DNA from: the human T2T-CHM13v2.0 reference genome, Homo sapiens
Reading direction: 5' to 3' (one strand)
NCBI RefSeq assembly: GCF_009914755.1
Contig: NC_060935.1
Length of the DNA: 64,000 nucleotides
Numbering within the stretch: the first letter of the stretch is position 1; each line of letters opens with the position of its first letter. Shown here piece by piece: positions 9,400 to 25,662 of this stretch. The notes below the pieces were generated by a model that worked only from the letters and a program-made list of their open reading frames with translations, was not told the DNA's origin and searched no databases. The position numbers and the translations under genes were made by a program.

Positions 9400-11851
9400 T
9401 GTATTAGTCAGTTCTTGCACTGCTATAAAGAAATACCTGAGACTGGATAATTTATAAAGAAAAGAGGTTTAATTGGCTCATGGTTCTACAGGCTGTACAG
9501 AAAGCATGATGCTGGCACCTGCTTGGCTTCTGAGGAAGCCTCAGGAAACTTAAAATCATTGCAGAAGTCAAAGGGGGAGCAAGCACTTCACATGGCCAGA
9601 GCAGGAGAAAGAAAGCAACAGGGGATGTGCTACACACTTTTAAACAACCAGATCTCATGAGAACTCACTCACTCTTGTGACAACAGTACCCTCGGAGAAA
9701 TCTGCCTCCGTGATCCAATCACCTCACACCCGGCCCCACCTCCAACACTGGAGATTACAATTGAACATGAGATTTGGGCAGGGACATATATCCAAACCAT
9801 ATCATTCTGCCCCTGGCCCCTCCCTAAACTCATGTCCTTCTCACTTTTCAAAATCCCTTCTCAACAGTCCCCCACAGTCTTAACTTCTTTAAGCATTAAA
9901 TCAAAAGTCCAAAGTTCAAAGTCTCATCTGAGACAAAGCAAGTCACTTCCACTTCTAAGCCTGTAAAATCAAAAACAAGTTAATTACCCCCCAAGGTAAA
10001 ATGCGAGTATCGGCATTGGGTAAATATTCTCATTCCAAAAGGGAGAGATCAGCCAAAAAATTAAAAAAAAAAAAAAAAAGGAGGGCTCCTGGCCCCATGT
10101 AGCCTGAAACCAAGCAGGGCAGTCATTAAATCTTAAAGCTCCAAAATAATTTCTTTTGACTCCACGTCTCATCCCGGGCACACTGTGGCAAGGGGTGGGC
10201 TTCCAAGGCCTTGGGCAGTCCTGCCCTGTGGCTTTGCAGGATTTAGCCCCTGCAGCAGCTCTCAAGGGCTAGTGTTGAGTGGCTATGGCTTTTTCAGACC
10301 GAGGGTACAAGCTGCTGGTGGCTCTACCATGCTTTATCATTCTGGGGGCTGGAGGACGATGACCCTCTTCTCACAGATCCACTAGGCAGTGCCTCAGTGG
10401 GGACTCTGCGTGCGGGCTTCAACCCCACACTTCCCCTCTGCACTACCCTAGTAGAGGTTCTCCATGAGGGTTCTACCTCTCATTCAGGCTTCTGCCTGTA
10501 CATCCATGCATTTCCATACATTCTCTGAAATCTAGGTAGAGGCTCCCAAGTCTCAATTCTTGCATTCTGTGTGCCCACAGGCTTAACACCATGTGGAAAC
10601 AGCCAAGGCTTATAGCTTGCACCCTCCAGAGCAGCAGCCCAAGGTTTACATGGGCCCCTTTTAGCCATGGCTGAAGCTAGAGCTTCTGGGACACAGGAAG
10701 CAGGGTTCTGAGGCTGTGCATTGCAGTAAGTCTTGGGTCTGGCCTACAAAACCATTCTTCCCTCAGAGGCCTCTGGGCGTGTGATGGGAGGGGCTGCGAA
10801 GAAGGTCTCTGAAATGCCTTCAAGACTTTTTCCCAGTTGTCTTGGCTATTAGCATTTGGCTCCTCTTTACTTATGCAAATTTCTGCAGCCTGTTTGAATT
10901 CCTCCCCTAAAAATGGGCTCTTCTTTTCTACCACATGGCCAGGCTGCAAATTTTTCAAACTTTTATGCTCTTCCTCCCTTTTAAATACAAGTTCCAGTTT
11001 CAGACCATATCTTTGCTTACACATATGAGGAAAGGTTGCTAGAAGCAGCCAACCCATATCTTAAACACCTTTGCTCCTTAAAAATTTCTTCCACCAGTTA
11101 CCTTAAATCATCTCTCTCAAGTTCAAAGTTCCACTGATCCCTAGAGCAAGGGCACAATATAGCCAGGCTCTTTGCTAAAGTACAGCAAAAGTGAGCTTTA
11201 CTCTAGTTCTCAGTAAGTTCCTCATTTCCATCTGAGATCTCCTCAGCCTAGATGGACTTCATTGTCCACATCACTATCAGCATTTTGGTCACAACCATTC
11301 AACAAGTCTCTAGGTAGTTCCACACTTTCCCTCATCTTCCTGTCTTCTTCTGAGCCCTCCAAACTGTTTCAGCTTCTGCCTATTACCGAGTTCCAAAGCT
11401 GCTTGCACATTTTCAGGTATCTTTATAGAAATGCCCCACTCCTTAGTACCAATTTTCTGTATTAGTCAATTGTTACACTGCTATAAAGAAAGATCAGAGA
11501 CTGGGTAATTTATAAAGAGAAGAGGTTTAGTTGGCTCACAGTTCTGCAGGCTGTACAGGAAGCATCTTCTCAGCTTCTGGGGAGGCCTCAGGAAACATAC
11601 AATCATGGCAGAAGGCAAAGGGGGAGTGAGCACTTCACATGGCTGGAGCAGGAGGAAGAGAAAGAAAAAGGAGTTGTTACACACTTTTAAACAACCATAT
11701 CTCACAAGAACTCACTCACTATTAAAACGACAGTACCAAGGAAGAAATCTGCCCCCATAATCAAATCACTTCCCACCAGGCCCCACCTCCAACATTGGGG
11801 ATTACAATTGAACATGAGATTTGAGTGGGGACACATATCCAAACCATATCA
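9400..11851 (-). mobile_element. Complete MSTA (ERVL-MaLR) element: LTR 9400-9804, MST-int 9805-11457, LTR 11458-11851
   Basis: Two homologous LTRs (tgtattagtc...aaaccatatca) around a MaLR internal region; perfect 5-bp TSD ctaag at 9395-9399 and 11852-11856. Confidence 0.95.
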
Positions 11852-15684: not shown

Positions 15685-16395
15685 TTTTACTCTATTTTCA
15701 TTGTTCTTAGTTTATTTTGCCTCCTTATGATTATTTATACTGCTTTCTTACCTCCATTCTTCTTAGGGCTTTATCAAGATTCCATTTTACTTGTTTTATC
15801 CTGTTTTTATACTAATTTTAGTTGCTTTAGCATTTTTAAATTTTTCTAACTAATTAATTTTTATTATATCTTTTCTGATTATTTAAATTACATAACTGGA
15901 AAGCATAAAGAGATAATCTGCAGGAATAGCCCATAACCCAAGCAAGAGAAGTAGAATGTTTTCTTCTTCAGAAAACCACCAATTTGTTCTCTTGGTAATT
16001 TCTAGACATTAGTAAGTATTATTAGTAGTCTGTGGATCGGGGACCTATAGCAAGTACAATTCGGAGTCTCTCTGAGCACCAGGGGCTTAAATCTCCCTGT
16101 GGTAAGCTAAGATGTTAGTAGGGGTTAGAATAAAGGGGAGTATAAGATAAAAGCTTAAGTACTTCCCCCATGTGTGGCCCAGGGAGCTCAAAGTCAGTAA
16201 AGAGCTCTTCTAAGCCTAATAAGGAAGGCTTCTTGGGAGAAGTGGGTCTTATTAAGACCTACTTCTTAATATTTCTTAATATTGTTAAATATATTTGCTG
16301 ACCAACAAATTGTGCTTTTATTACAAGGTAATAAAAACTTCACTATATTGACCTAGAAAACAGATCAATTTAAAAAGTAAAATAGTTGTTTAACT

Positions 16396-16466
16396 ATTTT
16401 TATTTTATTTTATTTATTTACTTACTAATATTTAGAGATTGAGTCTCTCACTCCATCGCCCAAGCT
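16396..16466 (-). mobile_element. Alu extreme 3' fragment (last ~30 nt + A-rich tail) fused to L1 ORF2
   Basis: 'ttattttatt...gagattgagtctctcactccatcgcccaagct' matches the antisense Alu 3' end; the rest of the Alu is absent. Confidence 0.8.
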
Positions 16467-16783
16467 CTTCTTGTTGAATTGATCCCTTTACCATTATGTA
16501 ATGGCCTTGTCTCTTTTGATCTTTGTTGTTTTAAAGTCTGTTTTATCAGAGACTAGGATTGCAACCCCTACCTTTTTTTGTTTTCCATTTGCTGGTAGAT
16601 CTTCCTCCATCCCTTTATTTTGAGCCTATTTGTGTCTCTGCATGTGAGATGGGTCTCCTGAATACAGCATGCTGATGGATCTTGACTCTTTATCCAATTT
16701 GTCAGTCTGTGTCTTTTAATTGGAGCATTTAGCCCATTTACATTTAAGGTTAGTATTGTTATGTGTGAATTTGATCCTGTCAT
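16463..16783 (-). pseudogene. L1 ORF2 endonuclease N-terminal remnant
   Basis: MTGSNSHITILTLNVNGLN...QETHL...WRKIYQ, then a 1-nt deletion near 16593 (taccagcaaat vs consensus taccaagcaaat) and truncation. Confidence 0.92.
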
Positions 16784-16846
16784 TATGATGTTAGCTGGTT
16801 ATTTTGCTTGTTAGTTGACGCAGTTTCTTCCTAACATCGATGGTCT

Positions 16847-17863
16847 TTACAATTGTGCATGTTTTTGCAGTGGCTGGTACCGGTTGTTCCTTTCCATGTT
16901 TAGCGCTTCCTTCAGGAGCTCTTTTAGGGCAGGCCTGGTGGTGACAAAATCTCTCAGCATTTGCTTGTCTGTAAAGTATTTTATTTCTCCTTCACTTATG
17001 AAGCTTAGTTTGGCTGGATATGAAATTCTGGGTTGAAAATTCTTTTCTTTAAGAATGTTGAATATTGGGCCCCACTCTCTTCTGGCTTGTAGAGTTTCTG
17101 CCAAGAAATCAGCTGTTAGTCTGATGGGCTTCCCTTTGTGGGTAACCTGACCTTTCTCTCTGGCTACCCTTAACATTTTTTCCTTCATTTCAACTTTGGT
17201 GAATCTGACAATTATGTGTCTTGGAGTTGCTCTTCTTGAGGAGTATCTTTGTGGCATTCTCTGTATTTCCTGAATTTGAATGTTGGCCTGCCTTGCTAGA
17301 TTGGGGAAGTTCTCCTGTATAATATCCTGCAGAGTGTTTTCCAACTTGGTTCCATTCTCCCCGTCACTTTCAGGTACACCAATCAGACGTAGATTTGGTC
17401 TCTTCACATAGTGCCATATTTCTTGGAGGCTTTGTTCATTTCTTTTTATTCTTTTTTCTCTAAACTTCTCTTCACACTTCATTTCATTCATTTCGTCTTC
17501 CATCGCTGATACCCTTTCTTCCAGTTGATCGCATTGGTTACTGAGGCTTGTGCATTCGTCACATAGTTCTTGTGCCATGGTTTTAAGCTCCATCAGGTCC
17601 TTTAAGGACTTCTCTGCATTGGTTATTCTAGTTATCCATTCATCTAATTTTTTTTCAAAGTTTTTAACTTCTTTGCCATTGGTTCGAACTTCCTCCTTTA
17701 GCTCGGAGTAGTTTGATCTTCTGAAGCCTTCCTCTTTCAACTCATCAAAGTCATTCTCAATCCAGCTTTGTTCCATTGCTGGTGAGGAGATGCGTTCCTT
17801 TGGAGGAGGAGAGGCCCTCTGATTTTTAGAGTTTCTGATTTTTCTGCTCTGTTTTTTCCCCAT
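16847..17863 (-). CDS. LINE-1 ORF1p (RNA-binding/chaperone trimer), full-length open 338 aa
   Basis: MGKKQSRK...; coiled coil; RRM 'KRPNLRLIG', 'RATPRHIIVRFT'; CTD 'REKG', 'ARREWG', 'YPAKLS' all retained. Confidence 0.93.
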   Translation of the reverse strand: MGKKQSRKIRNSKNQRASPPPKERISSPAMEQSWIENDFDELKEEGFRRSNYSELKEEVRTNGKEVKNFEKKLDEWITRITNAEKSLKDLMELKTMAQELCDECTSLSNQCDQLEERVSAMEDEMNEMKCEEKFREKRIKRNEQSLQEIWHYVKRPNLRLIGVPESDGENGTKLENTLQDIIQENFPNLARQANIQIQEIQRMPQRYSSRRATPRHIIVRFTKVEMKEKMLRVAREKGQVTHKGKPIRLTADFLAETLQARREWGPIFNILKEKNFQPRISYPAKLSFISEGEIKYFTDKQMLRDFVTTRPALKELLKEALNMERNNRYQPLQKHAQL

Positions 17864-18360
17864 CTTTGTGGTTTGATCTACCTTTGGTCTTTGATGATGG
17901 TGACGTACAGATGGGGTTTTGGTGTGGATGTCCTTTCTGTTTGTTAGTTTTCCTTCTAACAGTCAGGACCCTCAGCTGCAGGTCTGTTGGAGTTTACTGG
18001 AGGTCCACTCCAGACCCTGTTTTCCTGGGTATCAGCAGCGGTAGCTGCAGAACAGCGGATATTGGTGAAGCGCAAATGCTGCTGCCTGATCATTCCTCTG
18101 GAAGTTTTGTCTCAGAGGAGTACCCGGCCGTATGAGGTGTCATTCCACCCCTACTGGGGGGTGCCTCCCAGTTAGGCTACTCGGGGGTCAGGGACCCACT
18201 TGAGGAGGCAGTCTGCCCATCTCTCAAGCTGCGTGCTGGGGGAACCACTACTCTCTTCAAAGCTCAGTTGGAAATGCAGAAATCACCCGTCTTCTGCATC
18301 GCTCATGCTGGGAGCTGTAGACTGGAGCTGTTCCTATTCGGCCATCTTGGCTCCCAAGCC

Positions 18361-18518
18361 ATGATCACAAGTTCCAACAATAGGCTGTCTGCAAGCTGGA
18401 GGAGCAAGAAGAGCCAGTCTGAATCTTAAAACTGAAGAACTTGGAGTCTGATGTTCAAGTATTCCTGGAAGCATCCAGCACAAGAGAAAGATGTAGGTTG
18501 GGAAGCTAGGCCCATCTC
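18361..18518 (-). mobile_element. Internal fragment of MLT2A1 (ERVL LTR), approximately TSS to splice donor
   Basis: Minus strand gagatgggcctagcttcccaacctacatctttctc...ctccaagttcttcagtttt...gcagacagcctattgttggaacttgtgatcat; no U3 or LTR termini present. Confidence 0.85.
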
Positions 18519-19207
18519 CATTCTTGCTTTCTTATACACAAAATAAAAGAAAGTAAGCTCTGTGAATTGTTGATTGACTTGTATATCTCAAGTGTGAAGA
18601 TTTATTTGATGAAAATGTTAAATATTTGTGAGTGTATAGCTTATGAGATGCAGCTATAATACGTTTAAACCAATGGAGTTTTATTGGCAGAGTAAACGTA
18701 CACTTGCTTCTAATAATACTCACAATAAAAAATAAGGCCTGTCCCAAGTGCCTTAGCTATGGAGTAATCTGTATCAGTCAGAAAAACTTAACTCCACCCC
18801 CAGAAAAAGAGGTTAGCTACCTTCAGATTTGTCTCTGTTTATTTACTATGTAGACTCTAAATCCCATACTGGGGAGATTACCTGTGTTGTCAAGGTTTCC
18901 TTTCAAGAAACAACAAACTCTTCACAGGTCAGGTAGCACTTAAAGCTCATGAAATGGAGAATAAAGACAAAGTTGGCATTCTGGCATTCAGAAGGGAAAA
19001 GTCTTTAAAGAGTAAAAAACATTCCTATAGTTAGTTGTATAAGTGTACGGAACCATGGGGCATTGCATGACCCAATTTTGGGGCAATTCATGAGTAAGAA
19101 AGTGGAGAATTGACAAAGCGGTTAGAAAGGAGGCGTGTTCTACAACAAGACAAGATTACAGAGCCTTTTGGATAAATTAGGATTTCAGCTGGTGCCCCCA
19201 ATTGACG

Positions 19208-25270: not shown

Positions 25271-25662
<392 letters not shown>

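What the first reader, a model, noticed from the sequence alone, without database searches (positions are those of the whole stretch)
16396..18533. Fossil of an MLT2A1-promoted, spliced LTR-L1 chimeric mRNA that was retrotransposed
Seen (minus strand): a 158-nt MLT2A1 piece (18518->18361) is joined directly to the L1 5' end (18360->18263), which is joined to L1 nt ~622 onward. From my recalled MLT2A1 consensus, the piece starts at 'gagatgggcc', about 30 nt downstream of where the LTR TATA lies. It ends at 'gatcat', exactly where the consensus continues into the splice donor (gatcgt|GTAAGT). U3 and both LTR ends are missing, so it has the shape of an MLT2A1 first exon, not of a decayed LTR. Just outside lies attcttgctttctt|at (18520-18533), a 14-15 bp stretch ending in an L1-endonuclease-like TCTT/AT site, as expected for the 5' TSD copy; c18519 could be a cap-derived untemplated G. 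Established: MLT2A1/2 LTRs act as promoters at human embryonic genome activation and splice into downstream sequence. Inference: an embryonic LTR promoter drove a source L1 through splicing, and the three-exon mRNA was inserted by TPRT. This would be a spliced 5' transduction in which an ERV promoter stands in for the L1 promoter, and heritable evidence of LTR-driven L1 mobilisation in the early embryo or germline.
Basis: partly seen in the sequence, partly recalled or inferred. Interest (0 to 1): 0.88.

Follow-up and report, generated by a model that had tools for sequence, protein, structure and literature searches.

The report
LTR exon fused to spliced L1
A 158-base piece of an ancient retroviral LTR that matches that LTR's first exon from start site to splice donor sits directly on the front of a spliced, dead L1 copy, most likely the DNA fossil of a fused RNA copied back into the primate germline some 10-20 million years ago.

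Summary
On the minus strand, 18518->18361 is a piece of an MLT2A-type HERV-L LTR. In 29 related copies, TATA lies 30 nt before its first base (16 of 29) and GT follows its last base (28 of 29; 22 GTAAGT). This fits print: MLT2A1 is 444 bp, with start sites at 205-215 and donors near 350 (PMC8559712). No U3 or LTR tail lies anywhere in the window.

The piece abuts an L1 5' end. That L1 lacks exactly a GT...AG intron, so it is a known SpIRE97/622-type element (PMC5860796). It carries the ~129-bp block of L1PA3 and older subfamilies and is roughly 10-20 My old.

The TPRT claims are not supported. There is no target-site duplication and no L1 poly(A). The L1 stops early in its second frame and is joined to an Alu-type 3' end. 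No source LTR or sibling junction was found.

An RNA-derived chimera is the best reading (about 0.7). It belongs to the exon/L1 chimeras described in 2025-26 (Law & Burns), here with an LTR exon. How the two were joined is unresolved. The orthologous empty site could not be checked.

The parts
18520..18533 (-).
   Evidence: No matching copy within 250 nt beyond the tail. The best shared stretch is 9 nt with one mismatch, and 265 of 300 shuffles do as well.
18519..18519 (-). Single G between the flank and the LTR piece. It differs from most copies at that column. It could be cap-derived or simply flank.
   Evidence: Alignment. One base carries no statistical weight.
18361..18518 (-). MLT2A-type (MLT2A1 by length and landmarks) HERV-L LTR piece equal to the LTR's first exon, from the predicted transcription start to the last base before the GT donor. 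No U3, no LTR tail, no poly(A) signal.
   Evidence: Print: PMC8559712. No U3 or tail in the whole window.
18263..18360 (-). L1 5' UTR, first 98 nt or so, from within about ten bases of the usual L1 start to the last base before the L1 donor (SD97 of print)
   Evidence: L1 5' ends match from query positions 61-68 onward. Nine of nine full-length copies continue with GT.
16463..18262 (-). Rest of the L1: 5' UTR from the SA622-type acceptor onward (with the ~129-bp block), a first reading frame open over 338 codons, the inter-frame spacer, and a 107-codon stump of the second frame (2 stops, at least 1 frameshifting indel), where the element is cut off
   Evidence: Nearest relatives are 94-95% identical over 1401 nt.
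16431..16462 (-). About 32 nt of an Alu-type 3' end joined to the L1 stump with about 2 nt of microhomology
   Evidence: Local alignment score 44 against the 3' end of the repeat at 25278-25598; the best of 200 shuffles scored 30. That repeat gives two sub-threshold Metazoa_SRP hits. Junction read.
16396..16430 (-). Interrupted A-rich tail that belongs to the Alu-type piece, not to the L1
   Evidence: Sequence. There is no A run between the L1 stump and the Alu-type piece.

Best explanation
This is a dead, RNA-derived chimera. A transcript that began at the start site of an MLT2A1 LTR contributed only its first exon, cut at the LTR's own GT donor. That exon became joined, in sense, to the very 5' end of an L1 RNA of L1PA3-to-L1PA4 type. 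The L1 RNA lacked the 97/622 intron of its 5' UTR. The joined RNA was reverse-transcribed into the catarrhine or hominoid germline or early embryo about 10-20 My ago.

Shown: the exon shape of the LTR piece, the exact GT...AG loss in the L1, the sense orientation, the age class, and the absence of the rest of the LTR.

Inferred: that the LTR piece and the L1 arrived together. How they were joined is also inferred. The options are cis-splicing to a cryptic acceptor at the edge of a source L1, trans-splicing, or a jump of the reverse transcriptase from the capped L1 end to a free 5' exon. The timing in the cleavage-stage embryo is inferred too.

The 3' end was either lost later, by one deletion running into a downstream Alu, or never entered. 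In the second case the cDNA would have patched a break in an Alu without the endonuclease.

The copy carries no LTR promoter and only a weak spliced L1 5' UTR, and its donor GT is gone. It has no evident present function inside the BBOX1-AS1 intron.
For: Both ends of the piece fall on landmarks. TATA lies 30 nt upstream in 16 of 29 copies, and GT follows directly in 28 of 29. The piece starts at LTR position 203 (IQR 201-206) of a median 442-nt LTR. Print gives 444 bp, start sites at 205-215 and donors near 350 for MLT2A1, and all nine cloned transcripts were spliced within the LTR.

There is no U3 homology upstream. No U3 or tail lies anywhere in the 64 kb: the exon part hits in 29 of 29 copies at the piece only, the tail part in 0, and the U3 part gives 5 scattered single hits.

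The L1 junction is an exact intron removal. All 39 of 39 other scored loci carry the same junction, in line with the 116 SpIRE97/622 of print.

The same architecture is published for 17 gene-exon/L1 insertions. Six of them end exactly at donors, and several join within the first ten bases of L1. A SpIRE driven by an outside promoter is also published. MLT2A1 makes chimeric RNAs with LINE1 at human genome activation.

The sequence just before the join is not A-rich, so it is a poor endonuclease target for an L1 landing in an LTR already in place (read).
Against: No TSD, no L1 poly(A), and no endonuclease site that can be checked.

No source LTR. The best non-self hit is 88% identical, with 40 of 1477 candidates scored. 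A 25-nt private stretch finds only itself plus one unrelated 34-nt similarity. Of the piece's 13 rare columns, no copy among the 29 shares more than 2. A source copied 10-20 My ago should be about 95% identical.

No second locus has the same LTR/L1 junction: only the window covers both halves, with 40 of 753 candidates scored. None of 29 other SpIRE loci has this LTR within 500 nt upstream (5 of the 29 LTR copies were used as queries).

Co-arrival of the LTR piece and the L1 could not be tested, because no other primate genome was at hand.
Confidence: 0.7

Rival explanations
1. Coincidence in place. An old MLT2A1 LTR sat here. It lost its U3 by a deletion that happened to end at the start site. 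An unrelated SpIRE-type L1 later landed exactly at the donor. A further deletion then removed the L1 3' part and the LTR tail.
For: It needs no source LTR, and none was found. The piece is as diverged as any copy in place, with a terminal branch of 7.4% against 2.5-6.7% for the 29 copies, which are a biased sample. The 3' side has indeed suffered a loss, so a missing LTR tail alone is weak evidence.
Against: Two independent breakpoints would have to fall within a few bases of two functional landmarks in a 442-nt LTR. My rough estimate puts that at about 1 in 10,000 for random breakpoints. The L1 would be in sense and full-length at its 5' end. The bases before the join are not an A-rich endonuclease target.
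Confidence: 0.15
2. Plain unspliced 5' transduction. The source L1 had itself inserted into an MLT2A1 LTR exactly at the donor position. Transcription from the LTR start site read straight into it.
For: It explains the start-site end of the piece without any splicing. 5' transduction is an established L1 outcome (recalled).
Against: It needs the source L1 to have landed within a base or so of the GT donor by chance. No locus with an LTR interrupted there by an L1 5' end exists among the scored hits. No source LTR was found.
Confidence: 0.05
3. A DNA-level join. A deletion or end-joining event brought an LTR fragment and an L1 5' end together, with no chimeric RNA involved.
For: The same locus shows one end-joining-like junction, between the L1 stump and the Alu-type end, with short microhomology.
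Against: It does not explain why the LTR fragment runs from start site to donor, nor why the L1 partner begins at its very 5' end.
Confidence: 0.05

Closest known systems
Gene-exon/L1 5' chimeric insertions (Law & Burns; bioRxiv 10.1101/2025.02.02.635956; Cell Genomics 2026, PMC13174262)
   Same: First exon(s) in sense orientation on the 5' end of a near-complete L1 5' end. The exon ends exactly at its splice donor. The join falls within the first ten bases of L1 with no acceptor there.
   Different: Here the exon comes from a repeat, an ERV-L LTR, and not from a unique gene. The main texts name no LTR or ERV case. TSD, poly(A) and arrival at the same time, which define their set, cannot be shown here. 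The source transcript locus is missing.
SpIRE97/622 (PMC5860796, PLoS Biol 2018)
   Same: Exact loss of the intron between the 5' UTR donor after nt 97 and the acceptor before nt 622. The subfamily range is L1PA1-L1PA6, with a peak in L1PA3.
   Different: Extra LTR exon in front. The 3' 4 kb or so and the poly(A) are missing. Whether it is one of the 116 listed elements is unknown, because the supplements are closed.
RAP1GDS1-promoted SpIRE L1PA2 with offspring (Law & Burns, section read)
   Same: A spliced, promoter-poor L1 mobilised from an outside promoter, through a donor spliced to a cryptic acceptor just upstream of the L1.
   Different: There the source locus, the acceptor 15 bp upstream, four offspring and RNA reads are documented. 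Here there is none of these, and the promoter would be an LTR.
MLT2A1-initiated chimeric RNAs at human genome activation (PMC8559712; review PMC13690279; comment PMC13579372)
   Same: The same first exon: start sites at 205-215 and a donor near 350. LINE1 is a frequent 3' partner.
   Different: Those are RNAs. This is a heritable DNA copy, and its join is at the L1 5' terminus rather than at a mapped acceptor.
U6/L1 and other template-switch chimeras; SVA with a spliced MAST2 first exon (both recalled, not read here)
   Same: Two RNAs in one L1-made insertion. In the SVA case, a retroelement acquired a foreign first exon by splicing.
   Different: U6 partners are whole small RNAs joined to truncated L1s. 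The SVA case founded a subfamily, whereas this is a single copy.

Membership tests
MLT2A1 (HERV-L LTR) | Length about 444 bp (MLT2A2: 549 bp) as given in print | tested here: met
   The 29 nearest copies span a median of 442 nt (IQR 424-480). Print figure. The window holds only 158 nt of it.
MLT2A1 (HERV-L LTR) | TATA box with start sites at consensus positions 205-215 | tested here: met
   The piece starts at position 203 (IQR 201-206) in the copies' own numbering. TATA lies 28-33 nt upstream in 22 of 29 copies.
MLT2A1 (HERV-L LTR) | Canonical GT donor near position 350 | tested here: met
   The piece's end corresponds to about position 356. GT follows in 28 of 29 copies. In the window itself the GT is replaced by the L1 join.
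MLT2A1 (HERV-L LTR) | Match to the curated Dfam/Repbase model, and A1 told apart from A2 | not testable with these tools
   No repeat-model library is at hand. The RefSeq mask carries no names and is patchy over the LTR copies. The name rests on print landmarks.
SpIRE97/622 | Junction of the base before the 5' UTR GT donor with the base after the AG acceptor | tested here: met
   Nine of nine full-length copies show GT after the break. Ten of eleven relatives show AG before the resumption. All 39 of 39 other scored loci share the junction.
SpIRE97/622 | More than 95% identity to the 100-nt L1.3 junction probe; TSD and poly(A) curated | tested here: inconclusive
   The L1.3 probe is not at hand. 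TSD absent. Poly(A) absent.
Exon/L1 chimeric insertion (Law & Burns) | The 5' piece and the L1 arrive in the same interval in multi-species alignments | not testable with these tools
Exon/L1 chimeric insertion (Law & Burns) | One TSD flanks the 5' piece and the L1 3' end; endonuclease motif; poly(A) | tested here: not met
   Best shared stretch is 9 nt with one mismatch, and 265 of 300 shuffles do as well. The L1 3' end and poly(A) are missing.
Exon/L1 chimeric insertion (Law & Burns) | The 5' piece is the first exon, in sense, ending at its donor | tested here: met
Exon/L1 chimeric insertion (Law & Burns) | The 5' piece maps to an identifiable source transcript locus | tested here: not met
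   Best non-self LTR hit is 88% identical. No copy shares more than 2 of the 13 rare columns. The private 25-mer finds no relative.

The most novel reading that the evidence does not exclude
The join is not ordinary cis-splicing. A free MLT2A1 first exon was attached to the capped 5' end of an L1 RNA. That exon would be either cut at its donor inside a spliceosome or trans-spliced. This happened in a cleavage-stage embryo, where MLT2A1 transcripts abound. The product was fixed in the germline, possibly by endonuclease-independent repair of a break in an Alu. On this reading the locus would be the first ERV-LTR member of the donor-to-L1-terminus class. It would also be a dated fossil of genome-activation-stage LTR/L1 RNA fusion entering the germline.
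Probability: 0.2. Interest if true: 0.75.

Novelty: new variant of a known kind. Interest (0 to 1): 0.5.

Why it matters
If the LTR piece and the L1 did arrive together, the locus links two things that are each in print. One is MLT2A1-initiated chimeric RNAs in cleavage-stage embryos. The other is L1 insertions that carry foreign first exons ending at their donors. It would show that LTR-initiated transcripts can also end up on L1 5' ends in heritable DNA.

It would add a case to the unexplained set in which an exon's donor is joined to the L1 terminus with no acceptor. It would also give a rough date, 10-20 My, for such an event.

It is one dead copy, with no offspring and no source found. 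Its weight is that of a well-shaped example, not of a new mechanism.

Tried and rejected
A decayed LTR in place was considered and put at about 0.15 (see rivals).

I looked for remaining LTR parts. U3 homology upstream is no better than shuffles. The rest of the LTR is absent below the tail and anywhere in the 64 kb.

I looked for a TSD between the 50 nt before the piece and the 290 nt from the tail onward. There is none.

I looked for a source or a sibling in four ways:
- the whole piece;
- the LTR/L1 junction;
- a private 25-mer with up to 3 mismatches, whose one extra hit on C23 is only a 34-nt, 82% similarity;
- rare-state sharing among the copies.

The upstream flanks of 29 other SpIRE loci hold no such LTR within 500 nt. 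Longer flanks were not fetched. With no LTR copy above 88% anywhere, an upstream LTR there could not be the source.

Rfam finds nothing in 16200-18800. No RefSeq transcript on chr11 uses the three chr11 LTR copies.

The Alu-type piece matched only 1 of the 8 masked repeats tested at score 30 or above. A blastn-short search against the whole window found only the piece itself.

The terminal-branch comparison of the piece was set aside as biased, because the 29 copies were picked as nearest.

Literature searches for an LTR-exon/L1 insertion found no such report in listings or in the passages read. The supplementary tables of PMC5860796 and of Law & Burns may list this locus. They are closed and I did not open them.

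An exhaustive census of U3-less MLT2A1 exon pieces, or of LTR-exon joins to other L1 positions, was not possible. The genome search scores only 40 candidates per call.
Full report
ANATOMY. Read on the minus strand, the locus is, in order:
- unique flank down to 18520;
- a single G at 18519;
- a 158-nt LTR piece, 18518->18361;
- an L1 5' end, 18360->18263;
- the same L1 from a later point of its 5' UTR, 18262 onward, through a first reading frame and a stump of the second, ending at about 16463;
- about 32 nt of an Alu-type 3' end, 16462->16431;
- an interrupted A-rich tail ending at 16396.

The whole lies in sense inside an intron of BBOX1-AS1 (gene table). The RefSeq soft-mask covers the L1 (16444-18133 and 18144-18357) but not the LTR piece. 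That mask is patchy over other copies of the same LTR as well, so it says nothing about the family.

THE LTR PIECE. Searching the reference with the piece gave 1477 first-look candidates. Forty were scored, and the 39 non-self hits were 85-88% identical. The 29 fetched copies are 82-89% identical to one another (per-copy median); the piece's median identity to them is 86.7%. So the piece is an ordinary member of an old family.

The copies share homology over a median of 442 nt (IQR 424-480). The base matching the piece's first base is LTR position 203 (IQR 201-206).

In the copies:
- the first T of TATA lies exactly 30 nt upstream of that base in 16 of 29, and 28-33 nt upstream in 22 of 29 (6 of 29 have no TATA within 45 nt);
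- GT follows the base matching the piece's last base in 28 of 29 (GTAAGT in 22);
- AATAAA starts 14 nt further on in 22 of 29.

One paper (PMC8559712, Genome Res 2021; passages read) gives the matching landmarks. MLT2A1 is 444 bp and MLT2A2 is 549 bp. Embryonic start sites lie at 205-215, in an AG-rich stretch below a TATA box. Donors lie near 350. All nine cloned transcripts were spliced within the LTR. MLT2A copies occur in simian primates only. On these landmarks the piece is an MLT2A1-type first exon, start site to donor. The name rests on print, not on a repeat-model match, which I could not run.

LTR homology does not continue past 18518. The 242 nt upstream score no better against the copies' U3 than dinucleotide shuffles: 95 of 100 shuffles reach the observed median, and 93 of 100 reach the observed maximum. 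The A-rich 30 nt just upstream match 10 of 30, which 57 of 282 control 30-mers equal or beat. Across the whole 64 kb, the exon part of 29 of 29 copies hits only at the piece. The tail part hits nowhere. The U3 part gives five scattered single hits.

THE L1. L1 5' ends from elsewhere match from the second to the eighth base after the LTR piece. Nine bases lie between the LTR's last base and the conserved L1 motif that follows. That is within about ten bases of where other copies begin. I had no L1 reference numbering, so this is approximate.

After 98 nt the element jumps. Nine of nine ordinary full-length copies continue there with GT. Ten of the eleven nearest relatives read a pyrimidine-rich stretch ending in AG just before the point of resumption; the eleventh has the same jump. 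This is the SpIRE97/622 splice of PMC5860796 (passages read). That paper lists 116 such elements in hg38, in subfamilies L1PA1 to L1PA6, with 53 in L1PA3, and finds only weak promoter activity left. In CHM13, all 39 other scored loci (40 scored of 3939 candidates) carry the same junction at 89-93% identity.

The distance from the junction to the start of the first reading frame is 399 nt here. It is 403-411 nt in 26 of 29 other SpIRE loci, 378 nt in one and 277 nt in two. The 128-nt difference matches the 129-bp block that print places in L1PA3 and older. So the element is L1PA3 to L1PA6.

The nearest relatives are 94-95% identical over 1401 nt (40 scored of 8990 candidates). The element's own terminal branch is 2.5% over all sites and 1.55% with CpG columns masked. 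At a recalled rate of about 0.17% per My that is at least 9 My. The estimate is biased low because the nearest copies were chosen. I put the age at 10-20 My, and under about 27 My from the print limit.

The first reading frame is open over 338 codons. The second is cut off after 107 codons, with two stops and at least one frameshifting indel.

THE 3' END. The relatives go on in the second reading frame where the window switches to a sequence that aligns with the 3' end of the repeat at 25278-25598. The alignment score is 44, against a best of 30 in 200 shuffles, and only 1 of 8 masked repeats tested reached 30. That repeat gives two sub-threshold Metazoa_SRP matches, as an Alu dimer would. The name Alu is otherwise recalled.

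The join has about 2 nt of microhomology and no A run. No TSD links the flank before the LTR piece with the flank after the tail: the best shared stretch is 9 nt with one mismatch, and 265 of 300 shuffles do as well.

Two histories fit. In one, a normal insertion was followed by a single deletion into a downstream Alu. In the other, the cDNA entered at a break in an Alu without the endonuclease; such events lack a TSD and poly(A) and show microhomology (recalled). I cannot tell them apart.

SOURCE AND SIBLINGS. A source LTR copied 10-20 My ago should be about 95% identical to the piece.
- The best hit is 88% identical.
- A private 25-mer with up to three mismatches finds only itself and an unrelated 34-nt similarity.
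- Of 13 columns where the piece's base is held by at most 3 of 29 copies (9 held by none), no copy shares more than two.
- No other locus carries the LTR/L1 junction (40 scored of 753 candidates).
- None of 29 other SpIRE loci has the LTR within 500 nt upstream (5 of the 29 LTR copies used as queries).

Matches in closed regions are not shown by the tool, and only the best candidates are scored. These are therefore strong but not absolute negatives. The missing source is the main fact against an RNA origin.

WEIGHING. For a decayed LTR in place, two unrelated breakpoints would have to fall within a few bases of the start site and of the donor of a 442-nt LTR. My rough estimate puts that at about 1 in 10,000. 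The L1 would also have to land in sense with a complete 5' end, at a site that is not A-rich. A lost source is unlikely but far less so. I put the RNA-derived chimera at about 0.7, coincidence in place at about 0.15, unspliced transduction from an L1 sitting exactly at the donor at about 0.05, and a DNA-level join at about 0.05.

HOW THE TWO RNAS WERE JOINED. The published RAP1GDS1 case has one 15 bp upstream.

Law & Burns (sections read) describe 17 insertions in which gene first exons sit on L1 5' ends. Fifteen are in sense. Six end exactly at donors. Several join within the first ten bases of L1 where no acceptor exists. Fifteen of the genes hold no intronic L1. The authors propose trans-splicing or recombination of two RNAs. 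The present join has that same shape.

A jump of the reverse transcriptase from the capped L1 end to a free 5' exon is a third option, and it is my inference. The G right after the LTR exon could be the donor's G, an L1 base or a cap-derived base. Whether the 97/622 splice happened in the same RNA, or the source was already a SpIRE, cannot be told.

WHAT IS KNOWN AND WHAT IS NEW. In print:
- the L1 part (SpIRE97/622);
- the architecture (exon/L1 chimeras; an outside promoter rescuing a SpIRE);
- the RNA side: MLT2A1-initiated chimeric RNAs at human genome activation, 71-80% of them with other repeats, notably LINE1 and Alu (review PMC13690279, passages; comment PMC13579372, first part of the text; PMC10616205, passages).

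I found no report of an LTR-derived exon on an L1 5' end as a genomic insertion. This rests on the searches, and on term searches in both versions of Law & Burns. Their supplementary tables, and those of PMC5860796, are closed and may hold this locus. I rate the finding a new variant of a known kind, with interest 0.5.

LIMITS. No other primate genome, no repeat-model library and no RNA reads were available. Co-arrival, the exact model coordinates and the embryonic timing therefore remain inferences.

Noticed in passing
window 11540-11642 (within masked repeat 11442-11726): The only BBOX1-AS1 exon in the window lies wholly inside a masked repeat, so it is a repeat-derived lncRNA exon.
   Followed up: no
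L042 (G000:C18:9334078-9335282): A SpIRE-type L1 whose 5' end sits inside another, older L1's second reading frame in sense orientation. Its flank by chance resembles the window's LTR/L1 join over a few bases.
   Followed up: partly
L047 / L073 (G000:C12, about 69.79 Mb): One element is both SpIRE97/622-type and among the three nearest relatives (95% over 1401 nt) of the window's L1. It has no LTR in its 500-nt upstream flank.
   Followed up: partly
L048 and L068: Two of 29 SpIRE-type loci have a junction-to-first-frame distance of 277 nt instead of about 405 nt. They lack the ~128-nt block and belong to a younger L1 subfamily.
   Followed up: no
window 18361-18518 against L002-L030: The LTR piece has the longest terminal branch of the 30 aligned sequences: 7.4% against 2.5-6.7%. 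The comparison is biased because the 29 were chosen as nearest. An excess from the copying step cannot be judged.
   Followed up: partly
L084 (G000:C23:144711265-144712289): A 34-nt, 82% similarity to the piece's private stretch on the X chromosome, with no further LTR homology. Taken as chance.
   Followed up: yes
It is not above chance.
   Followed up: yes
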